A DNA stretch of 38,818 nt from a virus (IMGVR_UViG_3300045988_111050:1-38818), one strand, 5' to 3'. Counted from the first letter of the stretch, positions 56 through 38,818 are shown. The notes: a model not told the origin generated them from the sequence alone. Translations and numbers: made by a program.

Positions 56-181
56 TGGGATAAGGGGAGCGGCAACTCCCCTCAGTCCCTATTATATCAT
101 GAAAGGGAATAAAAATCATGGAAATTTTAATCATCAACATTTTGATAGTAGCGATTTGCTACTTATACTTAAGGAGCACAA

Positions 182-355
182 ATGAGAAGAGCAATCGAAG
201 AACTGCTAAAAAGCGAAATAAGCACCTACGCAATCGCAAAGGGAGCTAATGTCCCATACACAACTGTACTAGACTTGAGAACTGGAAAAACCAGCTTGGA
301 CAAAATAGCTTTACTCACTGCTGAGAAGCTATACAACTACGCAAAAGAAAAATAA
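182..355 (+). CDS. Small helix-turn-helix DNA-binding protein (57 aa), candidate autoregulator of the accessory operon
   Basis: ATG is preceded by AAGGAG 6 nt upstream. Translation is MRRAIEELLKSEISTYAIAKGANVPYTTVLDLRTGKTSLDKIALLTAEKLYNYAKEK, with an HTH-like core STYAIAKGANVPYTTVLDLRTGK. It falls below the ORF-track length cutoff. Confidence 0.7.
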   Translation: MRRAIEELLKSEISTYAIAKGANVPYTTVLDLRTGKTSLDKIALLTAEKLYNYAKEK

Positions 356-360
356 AAACA

Positions 361-400
361 CCTTACAGCCACTCAAACGCCAATCCGACTGGTTGTAAGG
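361..400 (+). other. 10-bp stem-loop (ccttacagcc / ggttgtaagg, one G-U) with 20-nt loop, no U-tract
   Basis: Complementarity read directly at 361-370 and 391-400. It sits immediately after the HTH stop codon. Confidence 0.5.
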
Positions 401-420
401 CAGGTGCACTCACTAAAAGC

Positions 421-482
421 AAGTACTTTTGTATTGTAGCATAAAGTACTTGTTAACGCAACAGGTACTTTATTTAGTACCT
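421..482 (+). promoter_or_regulatory. Cluster of four (A/G)GTAC(T/C) half-sites, including inverted repeat AGGTACT-N6-AGTACCT, upstream of orf112
   Basis: AAGTACT at 421 and 444, AGGTACT at 463, AGTACCT at 476. It lies in the intergenic region before the 504 start. Confidence 0.45.
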
Positions 483-503
483 CAGAAAAGAAAGAGGTAA
501 GAT

Positions 504-842
504 ATGCAAACAATCACAATGAAATCACTCCCATTTTACATTATCCAAAATGACGAATGTTTTGAACTGCTCGATTCGTTCCTGGCATCTGTCGAGTCAA
601 TAGATGACGAAAAAACGATAAAAGATAAAAGAGCTTTAGACAAATGTGTGGAAATTTTGGAGGCTAGTGGATATCGTATGGGATTTAGCTGCGCAACTCT
701 AAAATGCTTTGAAAAGCAAATGCTTGTGTCACTATCCACCGAATATAGGGCTGCTAAGAGATTGGCCCTCTTAGGGCAAGATAAAAACGAAAGTTTTGCA
801 AATTGGTGTAATAATAGAGCTGCCGCTAAGCACTCACTATAG
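504..842 (+). CDS. Hypothetical protein (112 aa), translationally coupled to the downstream recombinase
   Basis: ORF has a GAAAGAGG RBS. Its stop lies 11 nt before the recombinase ATG. No recognisable motif. Confidence 0.6.
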   Translation: MQTITMKSLPFYIIQNDECFELLDSFLASVESIDDEKTIKDKRALDKCVEILEASGYRMGFSCATLKCFEKQMLVSLSTEYRAAKRLALLGQDKNESFANWCNNRAAAKHSL

Positions 843-853
843 GAGGCGAAAAT

Positions 854-1639
854 ATGAAAGCGGCTATCTATACAAGGGTGAGTACCTTTGATCAGGCAAA
901 TGGTTACTCACTTGATATGCAGGAAAAACTGGCAACATCTTATTGCCAGCAACACGATATCGAGATATATAAGCATTATTCCGACGAAATTACTGGCGCA
1001 AAGATGGATAGGCCAGCTCTGCGTCGGTTGCTGGAAGATGCGAAGCATCAATGTTTTAACTTTGTAATTGTCCATAAATTGGATAGACTAAGCAGGTCTC
1101 AAAAAGATACCTTGCATATCATTGAGGATATATTTTTAAAAAACGAAATAGCCTTTATCAGTTTGTCCGAAAATTTTGATACCAGGACACCAGTAGGAAA
1201 AGTATTGGTTGGAATGCTTGCTGTATTTGCACAATTTGAAAGAGATCAAATAAGGGAACGAATGCAATTAGGAAAAATAGGGCGAGCATTACAAGGTAAG
1301 CCTATGACCTGGTCACCCCCTTTTTGTCCATTTGGGTATGATTACATTGATGGCCAATATCAAGCCAACGAATATAGTCATTGGATCAGATATATCTTCG
1401 ATCGCTTTTTAATAGGTGATACAATAAACACCATTGCTCACGATATGACTGACAGAAAAGTATTAAATAAAAAATGGTATTACTCAACTGTTAAATGGAT
1501 TTTGAAAAACCCCGTCTATATTGGAAAAATAAGATGGAGAGGTGAACTCTATCAAGGGATGCACTCGCCTATCATTCAGGAAGAAATCTATTATGAAGCA
1601 CAACTCAAAATCCCGACAACAAAAAAGAGCCCCAGCTAG
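854..1639 (+). CDS. Truncated large serine recombinase (resolvase catalytic domain plus recombinase domain, no zinc-ribbon/coiled-coil C-terminus)
   Basis: AIYTRVSTFDQ (catalytic Ser) and VHKLDRLSRS motifs are present, with an AGGAGG RBS. The protein is only 261 aa versus about 450-550 for functional LSRs. Its last codons (KKSPS) run into the lysin terminator hairpin. Confidence 0.8.
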   Translation: MKAAIYTRVSTFDQANGYSLDMQEKLATSYCQQHDIEIYKHYSDEITGAKMDRPALRRLLEDAKHQCFNFVIVHKLDRLSRSQKDTLHIIEDIFLKNEIAFISLSENFDTRTPVGKVLVGMLAVFAQFERDQIRERMQLGKIGRALQGKPMTWSPPFCPFGYDYIDGQYQANEYSHWIRYIFDRFLIGDTINTIAHDMTDRKVLNKKWYYSTVKWILKNPVYIGKIRWRGELYQGMHSPIIQEEIYYEAQLKIPTTKKSPS

Positions 1640-18960: not shown

Positions 18961-19060
18961 TAAGATAGGCGGGACCGCCGGATGTCGCCCGCATTTCTCG
19001 ACCCACTAGCTAAGTGGCGCGTTGGAGGCGGATACTTTTCAACCTCTATCTTTACTCCAA
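18961..19060 (-). promoter_or_regulatory. GC-rich structured RNA element with P1-like closing helix and antiterminator alternative (attenuator/riboswitch-like)
   Basis: AAGAUAG (19052-19046) pairs with CUAUCUU (18968-18962), enclosing about 77 nt. The enclosed region contains hairpins CCACU/AGUGG and GUCG/CGAC and pairings CCGCC/GGCGG and GCGGG/CCCGC. CUAUCU can instead pair with AGAUAG inside the terminator 5' arm. Confidence 0.35.
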
Positions 19061-34345: not shown

Positions 34346-35005
34346 ATGACTGAAAAGATTTGTTTTATTGTAACTGCCATTGGTGAATCTGGAACACCTA
34401 CCAGAGAACGAGCTGACAACGTATATAGATATCTTATCGCTCCTGTTTGTGAAGAACTTGGTTATAGACCTGTTCGTGTTGATCACGTCAATGCGGTTGA
34501 CAACATCAACGAAACAGTTATAAACTACCTCAAAACTGCCCCTATGGTCATAGCAGATATGACTGAACATAATCCTAATGCGTTTTATGAATTAGGTTTC
34601 AGGCAAGCCCGAGAACTCCCCCTTGTACCAATCATAAAGGTAGGAGAAAGACTTCCTTTCGATGTTATTACAACTCGTACCGTATTCTACGATACCGATG
34701 TGGCAAAAATTGAAGATTCTAAAGAAAATTTGAAATCTAAAATACTAAGTTTTGAAAACTTCGAAATGCCTGAGAGTCGTGCCGAAAGAAGTCTTACACT
34801 TGATGATCTCAATGACAATTTGACCAAAAAGCTAAACAAGATACTAAATCTGTTAGAAAAACAACAGTCTTATTCTTCTTTCACACCAATCAAAGATATA
34901 AAAGTAAAACCGTTTATATCCGAACATCAGTCATTGATTCAACAAGCTCAAGAGATACTCAATCGGACACAGAACCATCCATTATTCCCCGAAGATAAGA
35001 AATAG
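34346..35005 (+). CDS. Hypothetical 219-aa protein, lysogeny-strand moron; N-terminal Rossmann-like alpha/beta domain (NDT/TIR/SLOG-like by pattern), helical C-terminus
   Basis: It is the only plus-strand gene within the minus-strand block and has its own promoter, RBS and terminator. Pattern: KICFIVTAIG...YRPVRVD...PMVIADMTEHNPNAFYELGFRQA...PLVPIIK. Confidence 0.8.
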   Translation: MTEKICFIVTAIGESGTPTRERADNVYRYLIAPVCEELGYRPVRVDHVNAVDNINETVINYLKTAPMVIADMTEHNPNAFYELGFRQARELPLVPIIKVGERLPFDVITTRTVFYDTDVAKIEDSKENLKSKILSFENFEMPESRAERSLTLDDLNDNLTKKLNKILNLLEKQQSYSSFTPIKDIKVKPFISEHQSLIQQAQEILNRTQNHPLFPEDKK

Positions 35006-35629: not shown

Positions 35630-35983
35630 ATGTTACTAACTTTTGAAAGAATAAAAGAACTTGCAAATAAACAAGGGCTTTCGATAAATGCATTGGAAGA
35701 AAAGCTTGGATATAGCAGAAATACACTCTACTCTTTAAAAAAACAAAAAGCTAGTACAGAAAGAATGCAAGAAATTGCCGACTATTTAAATGTATCTTTG
35801 GATTATTTACTCGGTCGCACAGACAACCCAGCGATAGCAAGTGGTGACACAATCGCAGGATACACGTCTGACGACTTGCGAAAAATGGCAGAAAATGCCA
35901 AGACCTTCGATGGTAAACCACTCACAGAGGCGGACATCGACGCTATCCAAAATATCATTGAGATTTATTTGAGAGGTAGATAG
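35630..35983 (+). CDS. cI-like repressor (XRE HTH, 117 aa)
   Basis: HTH motif LSINALEEKLGYSRNTLYSLKKQK with ADYLNVSLDYLLGRTD. It is followed by an ImmA-like gene. Confidence 0.85.
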   Translation: MLLTFERIKELANKQGLSINALEEKLGYSRNTLYSLKKQKASTERMQEIADYLNVSLDYLLGRTDNPAIASGDTIAGYTSDDLRKMAENAKTFDGKPLTEADIDAIQNIIEIYLRGR

Positions 35984-35986
35984 CTT

Positions 35987-36367
35987 ATGACTATTGAAGA
36001 GCTTGTTGACTCGCACGGCGTTACTCTCGCTTACTTTGATAATGAGCTTTGGCACAGACCAGGCATCTACATCAAAGATATCAATATTATCTTTATAAAT
36101 CGTGAGTTGTCTGAGAACGCCAAAAAACGGGTCATATACCACGAATTAGGACATCTGGATCATTCTGCTGAACTTTATCAAAACAATCGTACTCGATGTG
36201 AAAATGAAGCAAATAGGCACATGATCCATAAGTTGCTCGAAGAAGAGCTTGCAGCATCAGATGACCACAAGTCTTTTAATTATTTACATTTTATGCAAAA
36301 ACACAAATTAAAGACGGTGACAGATGAGTTGATGGTCATTGATGAGTACTACGAATTGATAGGATGA
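35987..36367 (+). CDS. ImmA/IrrE-like zinc metalloprotease (anti-repressor protease)
   Basis: HELGH motif (VIYHELGHLDH), 126 aa, immediately downstream of the repressor. Confidence 0.8.
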   Translation: MTIEELVDSHGVTLAYFDNELWHRPGIYIKDINIIFINRELSENAKKRVIYHELGHLDHSAELYQNNRTRCENEANRHMIHKLLEEELAASDDHKSFNYLHFMQKHKLKTVTDELMVIDEYYELIG

Positions 36368-37038: not shown

Positions 37039-38190
37039 ATGTGGATGGAAGAACTTGCAAACGGAAAATATAAATTTTTTGAGCGCTACAAAGATCCCTA
37101 CACTGAAAAGCGGAAAAGAGTATCTGTGACTCTCGACTCAGGATCGGCAAGAGCAAAAAAAGAAGCTCAGAAGCTTTTAGATGAGAAGATAGATAAGGTT
37201 ATTCAGAAACTTTCGACATCAGATAGATTGTTTGCTGATTTGTTGGATGAATGGTGGACCTTCTACCAAAGGAGCGTAAGGCGGTCTAGTGTCCGGGCTC
37301 GTAAACCAGCGTACAAAAGATTATTAAAAGACTTTGCCTCGAACGTTCCGATACGCAATATTGATGTTGCTTATGTTAAAAAATATATTGCAAATTCCGA
37401 CTACACAGCTTCCCAACTCAATCATATCAAAGCTGTTTTAAATGGAGTTTTTGATTATGCCCAGGAACTAAAAATTATAAACGATAACCCAGCTCGAGCA
37501 ACTACGCTCCCTAAGCGCATTTTAACGCTGGACGATATAAAAACAATCAGTGAAAAGTACCTGGAACCTGAAGAACTCAACTCGCTTTTGAAAGAATTAT
37601 ACAGAACCCCCCGAACCTATAGAGCAGGGCTACTCGCTGAATTTATGTCTTTGAACGGCTGCCGCATTGGCGAAGCTGTAGCTATCGAAAAACACAATTT
37701 TCACCGAGAAAGTAGAGAATTGGATATACACGGGACATTAGATAGCATTGATAAAAACGCTAAGAAAGAACTAACGAAAACTCTATCAAGCTACCGCACG
37801 ACTAATCTGACTAACCGAGAAAAAGAGATTATAGATGAATTTATCAAGCTAAATGACCTAGCCAAAAACACGGATCCAAATTGGCCTGATACAGACTACA
37901 TTTTTCTCAACAATCAAGGAAAGCCAATACAGCGAAACGCTTTTAACATTACCCTGCAGAAAGCCAATCAGAGATTGGATAAGCCGATTAATAAGCCCCT
38001 CAGCTCCCACATCTTTAGGCACACCTTAATTAGTATGCTTGCTGAAAGAAACATACCTGTAAAAGCCATTATGGCCAGAGTCGGACACAAAGACTCTAAA
38101 ACCACCATGCAAATCTACACCCATGTCACAAAAAGTATGAAAACGAATATAGAGAATATTTTAGATGCGATTGCCAATGACAGAAAGTAA
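37039..38190 (+). CDS. int: Tyrosine integrase
   Basis: C-terminal catalytic motifs LNGCRIGEAVAI (Arg), HIFRHTLISML (HxxR) and GHKDSKTTMQIYTHV (His...Tyr). GAGGTG RBS. Confidence 0.95.
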   Translation: MWMEELANGKYKFFERYKDPYTEKRKRVSVTLDSGSARAKKEAQKLLDEKIDKVIQKLSTSDRLFADLLDEWWTFYQRSVRRSSVRARKPAYKRLLKDFASNVPIRNIDVAYVKKYIANSDYTASQLNHIKAVLNGVFDYAQELKIINDNPARATTLPKRILTLDDIKTISEKYLEPEELNSLLKELYRTPRTYRAGLLAEFMSLNGCRIGEAVAIEKHNFHRESRELDIHGTLDSIDKNAKKELTKTLSSYRTTNLTNREKEIIDEFIKLNDLAKNTDPNWPDTDYIFLNNQGKPIQRNAFNITLQKANQRLDKPINKPLSSHIFRHTLISMLAERNIPVKAIMARVGHKDSKTTMQIYTHVTKSMKTNIENILDAIANDRK

Positions 38191-38195
38191 AAATT

Positions 38196-38212
38196 TGCCC
38201 CTTTTTTGCCCC
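38196..38212. repeat. 17-bp direct repeat TGCCCCTTTTTTGCCCC, copy 1 (itself two TGCCCC units 11 bp apart)
   Basis: Identical to 38412..38428. It lies 6 nt after the integrase stop. Confidence 0.9.
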
Positions 38213-38411: not shown

Positions 38412-38428
38412 TGCCCCTTTTTTGCCCC
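38412..38428. repeat. 17-bp direct repeat, copy 2
   Basis: Identical to 38196..38212. Confidence 0.9.
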
Positions 38429-38602: not shown

Positions 38603-38631
38603 CTTGACTATAACGGTATACCGTTATATAA
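38603..38631 (+). promoter_or_regulatory. Near-consensus promoter TTGACT-17-TATAAT with a 20-bp perfect palindrome (38608..38627, TATAACGGTATACCGTTATA) filling the spacer
   Basis: Hexamers, spacing and palindrome read directly. An AT-rich inverted repeat lies upstream. AGGAGG RBS and the ATG at 38665 lie downstream. Confidence 0.75.
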
Positions 38632-38664
38632 TATAATCAAGGATAAGGAAAGGAGGTGAGGAAA

Positions 38665-38811
38665 ATGGACAAGGAAGATTGGCTCAGGTTACTTGATAAA
38701 GTAATCGATAATGGGCCAGCCTACATCACAGCTCTAACGGGTGCGTATGCGACATACAAACTCTGGAGCAAAGAAAAAAAGCGAAAACCTAGACCTCGCA
38801 AGTTTAAGTAA
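38665..38811 (+). CDS. Small protein (48 aa) with a strongly basic C-terminal tail; first gene of the accessory operon, not in the ORF track
   Basis: AGGAGG lies 8 nt upstream of the ATG. Translation MDKEDWLRLLDKVIDNGPAYITALTGAYATYKLWSKEKKRKPRPRKFK. Its 3' end lies in the terminal overlap. Confidence 0.6.
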   Translation: MDKEDWLRLLDKVIDNGPAYITALTGAYATYKLWSKEKKRKPRPRKFK

Positions 38812-38818
38812 TCGCCTT
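38764..38818. repeat. 55-bp terminal overlap, identical to 1..55
   Basis: Base-by-base identity. Confidence 0.95.

What the first reader, a model, noticed from the sequence alone, without database searches (positions are those of the whole stretch)
38603..38811. Near-consensus promoter with a 20-bp perfect palindrome filling the -35/-10 spacer, driving a 48-aa basic-tailed peptide and (across the circular junction) a small HTH protein
TTGACT-17-TATAAT at 38603-38631 is the best sigma-A-type promoter in the window. The perfect palindrome TATAACGGTATACCGTTATA (38608-38627) runs from the last base of the -35 to the first bases of the -10, an arrangement expected for tight repression by a dimeric HTH protein. 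The operon starts with an unannotated 48-aa ORF (AGGAGG RBS, tail KEKKRKPRPRKFK). After the assembly junction it continues into a 57-aa HTH gene (182..355). A strong operator-occluded promoter, small gene(s) and a small HTH autoregulator at the prophage end next to the lysin gene is the layout of anti-CRISPR/aca-type operons. It is also the layout of some toxin-antitoxin and lysogenic-conversion cassettes. None of the products matches a family I recognise.
Basis: partly seen in the sequence, partly recalled or inferred. Interest (0 to 1): 0.65.

Follow-up and report, generated by a model that had tools for sequence, protein, structure and literature searches.

The report
Self-repressed tiny-peptide operon in prophage
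A strong promoter with a built-in palindromic operator drives two tiny peptides and a small repressor related to anti-CRISPR regulators; this uncharacterised cassette recurs next to the lysin gene in many Streptococcus and Staphylococcus temperate phages, but its cargo does not look like an anti-CRISPR.

Summary
TTGACT-17-TATAAT lies at 38604-38632. A perfect 20-bp palindrome (38609-38628) fills the spacer. The transcript crosses the 55-bp assembly overlap.

- ORF48
- a two-tier GC hairpin (57-89)
- a very hydrophobic micro-ORF (118-249)
- the 57-aa HTH (182-355)

The HTH belongs to the AcrIIA13-15 N-terminal domain / Aca11 repressor family (PDB profile E 3e-20 and 2e-10). Members of that family bind inverted repeats between -35 and -10 of their own promoters.

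In 126 related Streptococcus loci the operator (TCWCGG-N4-CCGTGA), both peptides, the hairpin and the HTH are all kept. The peptides are under purifying selection. Pyogenic-group phages keep the cargo. They replace the palindrome and have a divergent Xre gene instead of the HTH. Staphylococcal phages, including phi11, have the same four-part architecture.

The Aca-type autorepression reading is therefore well supported. The anti-CRISPR reading of the cargo is not. The cargo is constant, basic and membrane-like, and it is carried by prophages of CRISPR-free pneumococci. Its function is unknown. My best guess is a tightly dosed membrane-acting accessory or anti-defence pair. I classify it as a new variant of a known kind.

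The parts
38604..38609 (+). -35 hexamer TTGACT
   Evidence: 11/12 promoter match. Conserved as TTGACT in most of 124 related promoters.
38609..38628 (.). Operator. Perfect 20-bp palindrome TATAACGGTATACCGTTATA, with core half-sites TAACGG / CCGTTA separated by 4 nt (10 bp centre to centre).
   Evidence: unique, and the longest palindrome in the window; family consensus TC(T/A)CGG-N4-CCGTGA at the same place, with a variable centre.
38627..38632 (+). -10 hexamer TATAAT. A second overlapping TATAAT lies at 38632-38637.
   Evidence: Conserved in related loci.
38650..38657 (+). Ribosome-binding site AAGGAGGT for ORF48
   Evidence: Conserved 5' UTR in all lineages.
38665..38811 (+). ORF48 (phrog_3399). 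48-aa peptide with an acidic N-terminal helix, a weakly hydrophobic middle and a basic tail.
   Evidence: phrog_3399, E 1.4e-24, full length. Intact in 133 loci. pN/pS 0.08-0.24. AF2 gives a single helix 3-39 plus a disordered tail.
38764..38818 (.). 55-bp terminal overlap identical to bases 1-55 (circular assembly junction inside ORF48)
   Evidence: Junction continuity shown by L049 and other loci.
57..89 (+). Two-tier GC-rich hairpin 8 nt after the ORF48 stop. Probable partial terminator or RNA 3'-end stabiliser.
   Evidence: -20.1 kcal/mol, z -2.5. The same fold occurs in four lineages with different outer-stem sequences.
118..249 (+). Hydrophobic micro-ORF (43 aa here, 21-24 aa in other lineages). 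One transmembrane helix plus a basic tail. Overlaps the start of the HTH gene.
   Evidence: Present in all 133 loci. Kyte-Doolittle 17-residue mean 2.4. pN/pS 0.10-0.17.
182..355 (+). 57-aa HTH repressor of the AcrIIA13-15-NTD / Aca11 family (phrog_1529)
   Evidence: Present at +270 to +376 in all 126 related loci with the CGG-N4-CCG operator.
361..400 (+). Imperfect hairpin after the HTH stop. Possible operon end, with no U-tract.
   Evidence: I16. Conserved in L049 and L050. Its function is inferred only.

Best explanation
This is a negative-feedback ('Aca-type') accessory operon of a temperate Streptococcus phage.

Mechanism (inferred except where marked shown):
- A near-consensus sigma-A promoter fires as soon as the DNA is in a cell that has no repressor.
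- It transcribes ORF48 and then meets a GC hairpin that probably stops or stabilises most transcripts there.
- Read-through transcripts also encode a transmembrane micro-peptide and the 57-aa HTH.
- The HTH accumulates and, as a dimer, binds the two half-sites TAACGG/CCGTTA. These lie one helical turn apart between -35 and -10. Binding occludes RNA polymerase.
- Expression would therefore be a burst followed by a low, copy-number-independent level in the lysogen.

Shown here:
- the anatomy
- the homology of the HTH to proven autorepressors
- conservation and purifying selection of every part
- the swap of operator together with regulator in another phage lineage

Inferred: binding, repression and hairpin function.

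The cargo is a conserved pair of tiny peptides. One is a basic-tailed single helix and one is a transmembrane peptide. Their need for tight dosing and their membrane character suggest a membrane-acting accessory function. The candidates are anti-defence, superinfection exclusion or host take-over. Direct inhibition of Cas proteins looks unlikely. The exact target is unknown.
For: HTH homology:
- Full-length match to the AcrIIA15 NTD (phmmer E 7e-8; 45% identity).
- Family profile against the PDB: AcrIIA15 3e-20, Aca11 2.4e-10.
- These relatives bind inverted repeats between -35 and -10 of their own promoters and repress them (PMC10901769; PMC7104187; PMC12282945; PMC12658196).

Operator:
- It is unique in the window.
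- The half-sites are conserved and the centre is free in 118 loci.
- The window and L049 carry a change on both half-sites together with recognition-helix changes. L048 has a hybrid operator.

Co-occurrence and lineage swap:
- All 126 related loci with this operator encode the HTH at a fixed distance.
- Six pyogenic-group loci keep the cargo. They have the palindrome TACAAGA-N3-TCTTGTA, lack this HTH, and carry a divergent 69-aa Xre gene instead.

Conservation of the parts:
- The hairpin is conserved as a structure.
- Purifying selection acts on all three ORFs.

Wider distribution and neighbourhood:
- The same four-part architecture, with unrelated sequences, occurs in phi11, phiSP38-1 and a Staphylococcus-like contig.
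- The module lies next to acr/aca11 and acr/aca12 loci in some phages.
Against: - No binding or expression data exist. Everything regulatory is by homology and comparative pattern.
- The related loci are not phylogenetically independent, so the 126/126 co-occurrence is worth only a few independent events.
- The operator-HTH co-variation rests on three lineages.
- The hairpin's U-tract is interrupted, so termination is unproven.
- ORF48's middle segment is only weakly hydrophobic in this window (KD 0.64), so membrane insertion of that peptide is uncertain.
- The cargo function is a guess by exclusion.
Confidence: 0.6

Rival explanations
1. A genuine anti-CRISPR operon. ORF48 or the micro-peptide (or ORF112 downstream) inhibits a Cas9 or another Cas effector, and the HTH is its Aca.
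For: - The HTH belongs to the Aca11 / AcrIIA13-15-NTD family.
- The operator sits in the promoter spacer, as for Aca11.
- The module lies in the lysin-att region where streptococcal acr-aca11 and acr-aca12 loci sit.
- Mitis-group hosts can carry type II-A systems (general knowledge).
Against: - The cargo is invariant while the regulator is swapped. This is the opposite of acr loci.
- The cargo is basic and membrane-like.
- It shows no similarity to Acrs with solved structures or to the AcrIIA24-32 set.
- It is carried by S. pneumoniae prophages although pneumococci lack CRISPR-Cas.
- Analogous cassettes occur in S. aureus phages.
Confidence: 0.1
2. A toxin-type module (addiction, abortive infection or lysis-timing). 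The transmembrane micro-peptide is a membrane toxin like type I toxins or small holins. ORF48 modulates it, and the HTH keeps both at sub-lethal levels.
For: - The micro-peptide has the build of Fst- or PepA1-like toxins: a hydrophobic helix plus a short basic tail.
- It is tightly repressed and sits behind an attenuating hairpin.
- It is always adjacent to the holin-lysin cassette.
Against: - No antisense promoter-like site lies inside the operon (a weak test).
- There are no hits to toxin or defence families in Pfam, NCBIfam or PADLOC.
- The orientation relative to the lysin gene varies: convergent here, co-directional in L137 and in staphylococcal phages.
Confidence: 0.2
3. The palindrome is bound by another factor (the phage cI-like repressor, integrase/Xis, or a host regulator), and HTH57 acts elsewhere.
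For: No direct binding data tie HTH57 to this site. The site lies about 400 bp from the integrase gene end and the probable attP.
Against: - No second copy of the motif exists in the window, including the cI/cro switch region.
- The motif travels with the HTH gene in cis in every locus and is replaced when the HTH is replaced.
- In pyogenic phages the module lies far from att.
Confidence: 0.07
4. Chance palindrome and spurious small ORFs.
For: A 10+10 palindrome occurs somewhere in 4.5% of shuffled windows. Small ORFs are easy to find.
Against: Position, sequence and reading frames are conserved in more than 130 loci, with pN/pS of 0.08-0.24.
Confidence: 0.01

Closest known systems
AcrIIA13-15 N-terminal HTH domain (Staphylococcus; PDB 8JFR/8JFO)
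   Same: - 45% identity over the whole 56-57 residues.
- The promoter carries an inverted repeat between -35 and -10 that the domain binds as a dimer to repress its own operon (PMC10901769, PMC7104187).
   Different: - Here the HTH stands alone, with no Cas9-inhibiting C-terminal domain.
- It is the last gene of the operon, not the first.
- The base-contacting residues differ (S25/Q26/K31 there, P25/Y26/D31 here), as does the operator sequence.
Aca11 and the acrIIA25.1-aca11 operon of Streptococcus prophages (PDB 9LX2)
   Same: - Same HTH family (profile E 2.4e-10). The phi11 counterpart is 46% identical to Aca11.
- A roughly 60-aa stand-alone repressor encoded downstream of its cargo.
- The inverted repeat fills a 17-nt spacer of a TTGACA/TATACT-type promoter (PMC12658196).
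   Different: - Aca11's cargo genes are validated Cas9 inhibitors and vary between loci. Here the cargo is two constant micro-peptides with no Acr similarity.
- Only one operator is present, whereas Aca11 controls two promoters.
AcrIIA1 locus of Listeria prophages
   Same: An autorepressed accessory operon beside the endolysin gene at the prophage end, with a palindrome in the promoter (from my own knowledge and bioRxiv 10.1101/787200).
   Different: The family profile found no detectable sequence match to AcrIIA1 in the PDB. AcrIIA1 is itself a Cas9 inhibitor.
Type I toxin peptides (Fst, PepA1) and small holins
   Same: The micro-ORF product is a 21-43-aa peptide with one hydrophobic helix and a basic C-terminus.
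   Different: No antisense RNA was detected and there is no family hit. The micro-ORF is co-transcribed with a protein repressor rather than controlled by RNA.

Membership tests
Aca11 / AcrIIA13-15-NTD family of HTH autorepressors | Significant full-length sequence similarity to a validated member | tested here: met
   AcrIIA15 E 7e-8 with the single sequence. With the family profile, AcrIIA15 scores 3e-20 and Aca11 2.4e-10. 45% identity over 56 aa.
Aca11 / AcrIIA13-15-NTD family of HTH autorepressors | Small (about 60 aa) four-helix HTH that dimerises and binds an inverted repeat in its own promoter | not testable with these tools
   The length (57 aa) and a cis-linked inverted repeat fit. 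Fold, dimerisation and binding were not tested. I ran no structure prediction of the HTH.
acr-aca (anti-CRISPR) operon | Inverted repeat overlapping the promoter of an operon that also encodes an Aca-family repressor | tested here: met
acr-aca (anti-CRISPR) operon | At least one co-transcribed gene is a validated Acr or a homologue of one | tested here: not met
   - ORF48 and ORF112 have no PDB match.
- Fourteen Acr and Aca queries from Song 2022 find nothing in the window except the HTH itself.
- The PHROG families are of unknown function.
- Only a subset of known Acrs could be compared.
acr-aca (anti-CRISPR) operon | Cargo varies between related elements while the aca gene is the constant marker | tested here: not met
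   ORF48 and the micro-peptide are present in all 133 loci. The regulator and operator are what differ between mitis-group and pyogenic-group phages.
acr-aca (anti-CRISPR) operon | Found in elements whose hosts carry the targeted CRISPR-Cas system | tested here: not met
   The module is present in S. pneumoniae prophages. Pneumococci have no endogenous CRISPR-Cas (PMC8637289).
Type I toxin-antitoxin | Small hydrophobic toxin peptide | tested here: met
   Micro-ORF 118-249 and its homologues.
Type I toxin-antitoxin | Antisense or overlapping regulatory RNA with its own promoter | tested here: inconclusive
   No minus-strand promoter-like site lies inside the operon and no Rfam family matches. 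A consensus scan is a weak test.
Intrinsic terminator / attenuator (hairpin 57-89) | Stable GC-rich stem followed by a U-tract | tested here: inconclusive
   The stem is stable and structurally conserved in four lineages. The tail is U-rich but interrupted (UAUUAUAUCA here, UAUUUUAUCA in the PH10 type). The terminator scan did not report it.

The most novel reading that the evidence does not exclude
The four-part cassette consists of a sigma-A promoter with the operator in its spacer, a micro-protein, a hairpin, a transmembrane micro-protein and an Aca11-like repressor.

On this reading it is a widespread, undescribed class of burst-then-shut-off phage function in Streptococcus and Staphylococcus temperate phages, phi11 included. 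Its two membrane micro-proteins would act against a host defence or an incoming competitor that is not CRISPR. The cassette would also be the ancestral chassis from which Acr-HTH fusions such as AcrIIA13-15 arose.
Probability: 0.3. Interest if true: 0.75.

Novelty: new variant of a known kind. Interest (0 to 1): 0.58.

Why it matters
Aca-family repressors are used as bait for finding anti-CRISPRs. This case shows a large, conserved branch of that family controlling something else: a fixed pair of micro-peptides, in phages of hosts without CRISPR.

If the cargo proves to be an anti-defence, exclusion or membrane-toxic function, it would widen what 'Aca-regulated' means. It would also give a function to a gene set found in well-studied phages (phi11, PH10, 315.1, pneumococcal prophages) that databases list as hypothetical or leave unannotated.

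The regulatory part is directly testable with one EMSA and one reporter.

Tried and rejected
- Pfam, NCBIfam and PADLOC gave nothing for ORF48, the micro-ORF or the HTH. PHROGs gave only unknown-function families.
- Rfam found no family for the hairpin or the 5' UTR.
- The word-indexed protein search returned only close relatives. The exhaustive profile search found just 7 representatives of the ORF48 family, so the family is narrow.
- The MAFFT/RNAalifold alignment of the hairpin region put the outer stems out of register and recovered only the inner stem. I parsed the stems by script and folded each lineage separately instead.
- The AF2 model of ORF112 was too poor (pLDDT 47) to use in a fold search.
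- I recalled a paratox partner named 'JoiA' as a possible identity for the pyogenic 69-aa Xre. The library has no such name, and the paratox paper describes other partners, so I dropped the idea.
- I considered excisionase for ORF48 because it is small, basic and near attP. I rejected it because the module is far from att in pyogenic phages.
- I considered a quorum or arbitrium-like pro-peptide for the micro-ORF. I rejected it because the charge and hydrophobic order is reversed relative to SHP/AimP-type peptides (my own knowledge).
- I considered cre, CIRCE and CodY-type host boxes for the palindrome. None resembles it (my own knowledge).

Full report
**1. What is in the sequence**

The window is a 38,763-bp circular assembly. 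Its last 55 bases repeat its first 55. It is a temperate Streptococcus siphovirus-like genome with these features:
- a tyrosine integrase at 37039-38190
- a cI-like HTH and an ImmA-like protease at 35630-36367
- a CHAP endolysin on the minus strand at 1716-2423

- -35 TTGACT at 38604-38609
- a 17-nt spacer
- -10 TATAAT at 38627-38632 (11/12)
- the perfect palindrome TATAACGGTATACCGTTATA at 38609-38628

This palindrome is the longest perfect one in the window. Only 9 of 200 dinucleotide shuffles of the whole window hold any 10+10 palindrome. Seven sites in the window score 11/12 as promoters. This is the only one that combines the optimal 17-nt spacer with a perfect -10, so 'best' is a fair but slightly generous description.

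ORF48 runs from 38665 to 38811, with AGGAGG 8 nt upstream. The reading frame and the operon cross the assembly junction. Independent contigs carry the same genes without a break (for example L049, 94% identical, with the HTH at +280 and ORF112 at +602), so the junction is not an artefact.

**2.

Eight bases after the ORF48 stop lies a two-tier GC hairpin (window 57-89; -20.1 kcal/mol).

Next comes a very hydrophobic micro-ORF (118-249, MEILIINILIVAICYLYL...; Kyte-Doolittle 17-residue mean 2.4). Its 3' part overlaps the start of the 57-aa HTH gene (182-355), which has its own AAGGAG site.

The operon is therefore: promoter/operator, ORF48, hairpin, transmembrane micro-peptide, HTH.

**3. The HTH protein has known relatives**

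A sequence search of the PDB matches the whole protein to the N-terminal domain of AcrIIA15 (E 7e-8; 45% identity over 56 residues). It matches Aca11 weakly. A profile built from nine family members raises these scores to 3e-20 (AcrIIA15) and 2.4e-10 (Aca11). The same profile finds no AcrIIA1. Aca12's N-terminus is also similar (37.5% identity over 40 residues).

What is published about these relatives:
- The AcrIIA13-15 NTD binds inverted repeats at its own promoter, one of them between -35 and -10, as a dimer, and represses it (PMC7104187; PMC10901769).
- Aca11 binds a 22-24-bp inverted repeat that fills the 17-nt spacer of TTGACA/TATACT promoters (PMC12282945; PMC12658196).

The base-contacting positions of AcrIIA15 (S25, Q26, K31) are P25, Y26 and D31 here. 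A different operator sequence is therefore expected.

**4. Comparative evidence that the palindrome is this protein's operator**

Scans with an ORF48 alignment returned 44 loci from Streptococcus species genomes and 80 of 154 viral contigs.

*Mitis-group loci.*
- Of the 124 loci with enough upstream sequence, 118 carry TTGACT-17-TATAAT with TC(T/A)CGG-N4-CCGTGA in the spacer.
- The CGG and CCG triplets do not vary across these loci. The central four bases vary freely (TGTA, TATA, TACA, TATG, CGTA, TTTA and others).
- This is the pattern of two protein-contacted half-sites 10 bp apart. It is not the pattern of a transcribed hairpin, and the site lies upstream of the expected start point.
- All 126 related loci with this operator encode an HTH57 homologue 270-376 nt after the ORF48 start.

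*Variants close to the window.*
- The window and L049 carry the same change on both half-sites (TAACGG/CCGTTA). Their HTH differs in the recognition helix (W26Y, S30L, K34T).
- L048 has a hybrid operator (TAACGG/CCGTGA) and an intermediate helix.

*Pyogenic-group phages.* Six loci were examined (315.1, Javan172, Javan141, phi3396 and two GBS phages).
- They keep ORF48, the hairpin and the micro-peptide.
- They have a different palindrome, TACAAGA-N3-TCTTGTA, in the same spacer.
- They have no HTH57.
- They carry a divergently transcribed 69-aa Xre gene, annotated as 'repressor'.

The operator changes when the regulator changes, and the cargo stays. The motif occurs only once in the window, so the phage's main repressor is unlikely to use it.

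One caveat applies. These loci are related to each other, so the number of independent observations is a handful of lineages, not 126.

**5. Every part is under selection**

| Part | Presence | pN/pS |
|---|---|---|
| ORF48 | intact in 133 loci | 0.08, 0.18 and 0.24 in three lineages |
| Micro-peptide | found in all 133 loci, in three sequence classes of 21, 24 and 41-43 aa | 0.10 and 0.17 |
| HTH | see section 4 | 0.13 |

The hairpin keeps its two-tier shape in four lineages. The outer stems differ in sequence (AGAGGT/ACCTCT, GGGAT/GTCCC, GGACAG/CTGTCC, GATAGGT/ACCTATC). There are two inner stems (GGGGC/GCCCC, GGGGAG/CTCCCC). Each version folds at -20 to -22 kcal/mol.

The hairpin is followed by a U-rich but interrupted tail. 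I read it as a leaky terminator or a 3'-end stabiliser that would make ORF48 more abundant than the micro-peptide and the repressor. That step is inferred.

**6. The same architecture beyond Streptococcus**

HTH57 homologues occur in 74 Staphylococcus phage records. The table lists the three staphylococcal cases I read in detail, plus one more streptococcal contig.

| Phage or contig | Promoter and palindrome in the spacer | Gene order after the promoter |
|---|---|---|
| phi11 | TTTACT-17-TATAAT with TAAAC-ATTT-GTTTA | 42-aa ORF, GC hairpin, 36-aa transmembrane ORF, 61-aa HTH (46% identical to Aca11) |
| phiSP38-1 | TTGACT-17-TATAAT with ACGTTAG-AAAA-CTAACGT | 30-aa ORF, hairpin, 36-aa transmembrane ORF, 68-aa HTH |
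| L134 (Staphylococcus-like contig) | not resolved | same gene order |
| L137 (Streptococcus contig) | TCACGG-CTAA-CCGTGA | 43-aa phrog_3399 member, hairpin, micro-ORF, HTH |

In the three staphylococcal cases the cassette lies just after the lysin gene. In L137 the cassette runs in the same direction as the lysin gene and is followed by an orf5/Aca12 operon.

In Javan172, Javan141 and phi3396 the cassette sits next to the orf4 / Aca11-like / orf7 locus described by Song et al. 2022 (PMC8934645). The cassette therefore lives in the region where streptococcal anti-CRISPR loci are found, but it is a separate transcription unit.

**7. What the cargo is, and is not**

AlphaFold models ORF48 as one long helix (residues 3-39) with a disordered basic tail (pLDDT 75). 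Its pI is 10. Its middle segment is borderline hydrophobic: KD 0.64 here, and 1.5 in other lineages. The L137 variant has a visibly more hydrophobic middle segment. The micro-peptide is a clear single transmembrane helix with a basic C-terminus.

Neither peptide resembles any solved structure or the tested set of Acr and candidate proteins.

Four observations argue against an anti-CRISPR role:
- The cargo is constant while the regulators are exchanged.
- The cargo is basic and membrane-like.
- It is carried by prophages of S. pneumoniae, a species without CRISPR-Cas (PMC8637289).
- Look-alike cassettes sit in S. aureus phages.

A review of pneumococcal prophages mentions a conserved fragment of about 700 bp 3' of the phage lytA genes but gives it no function. 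PHROGs lists every family involved as unknown. My literature searches found no description of the cassette.

**8. Most likely mechanism**

- On entry, or in a cell without repressor, the near-consensus promoter fires.
- Most transcripts end at or are stabilised by the hairpin and give ORF48.
- Read-through transcripts give the micro-peptide and HTH57.
- An HTH57 dimer then occupies the operator and blocks RNA polymerase.
- The lysogen holds the operon at a low, self-limited level.

This is the logic shown experimentally for Aca11 and AcrIIA15. Here it rests on homology and on the comparative pattern. The cargo most likely acts at the membrane and needs tight dosing.

I rank the alternatives as follows:
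- a protective accessory role (anti-defence, superinfection exclusion or host take-over) first
- a toxin-like, addiction or lysis-timing role second (0.2)
- a true Acr third (0.1)

**9. Verdict**

The anti-CRISPR half is not.

This is a new variant of a known kind: an Aca-family autorepressed operon with an unusual, conserved micro-peptide cargo and a built-in hairpin, widespread but uncharacterised. Interest is moderate to good, because it is directly testable in model phages.

Noticed in passing
window 356-503: The non-coding stretch between the HTH gene and ORF112 is more conserved (about 95%) than the flanking genes in L049 and L050. It holds a hairpin (361-400) and four GTAC-centred 8-mers (two perfect AAGTACTT palindromes and two variants) at about 420-482. 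It could be a second regulatory region or an RNA element for ORF112.
   Followed up: partly
window 504-842: ORF112 is found only in the closest relatives (L048-L050, 71-88% identity). It has no hit in Pfam, PHROG, NCBIfam or the PDB, and its AF2 model is poor. A truncated homologue sits in prophage 315.1. It is a possible variable cargo gene.
   Followed up: partly
window 854-1639: A 261-aa serine recombinase (Resolvase + Recombinase domains) matches only the N-terminal 230-255 residues of large serine recombinase models of 442-558 positions. It lies beside the lysin gene in a phage that also has an intact tyrosine integrase. It is probably a remnant.
   Followed up: no
window 34346-35005: A 219-aa ORF beside the lysogeny switch matches a PADLOC TIR effector model (E 1.4e-17, residues 20-137). 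It has no Pfam TIR hit. It could be a prophage-borne defence or NADase-like gene.
   Followed up: partly
window 18961-19053 (-): Rfam 'skipping-rope' RNA motif above the gathering score (49 bits, E 8e-9), upstream of the putative portal/terminase region.
   Followed up: no
window 38196-38212 and 38412-38428: An exact 17-nt direct repeat TGCCCCTTTTTTGCCCC lies 216 nt apart between the integrase gene and the promoter. Similar GCCCC-T-rich motifs lie just upstream of the promoter in several integrated relatives. These may be attP core or arm sites.
   Followed up: no
L138 (phi11) 1605-1645; L134 2500-2535: Staphylococcal versions of the cassette carry an extra inverted repeat (GTAGGT...ACTTAC / TGTAAGT-N5-ACTTACA) just downstream of the -10. 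It could be a second operator or a 5'-UTR hairpin.
   Followed up: no
L138 (phi11) 2324-2439: A DUF3800-I RNA motif (Rfam, 54 bits) lies downstream of the phi11 cassette.
   Followed up: no
L001 (315.1) 1635-1874: SpyM3_0733 is a 79-aa, strongly acidic protein with its own promoter-like site, downstream of the cassette in 315.1. It has an anti-restriction/Acr-like composition.
   Followed up: no
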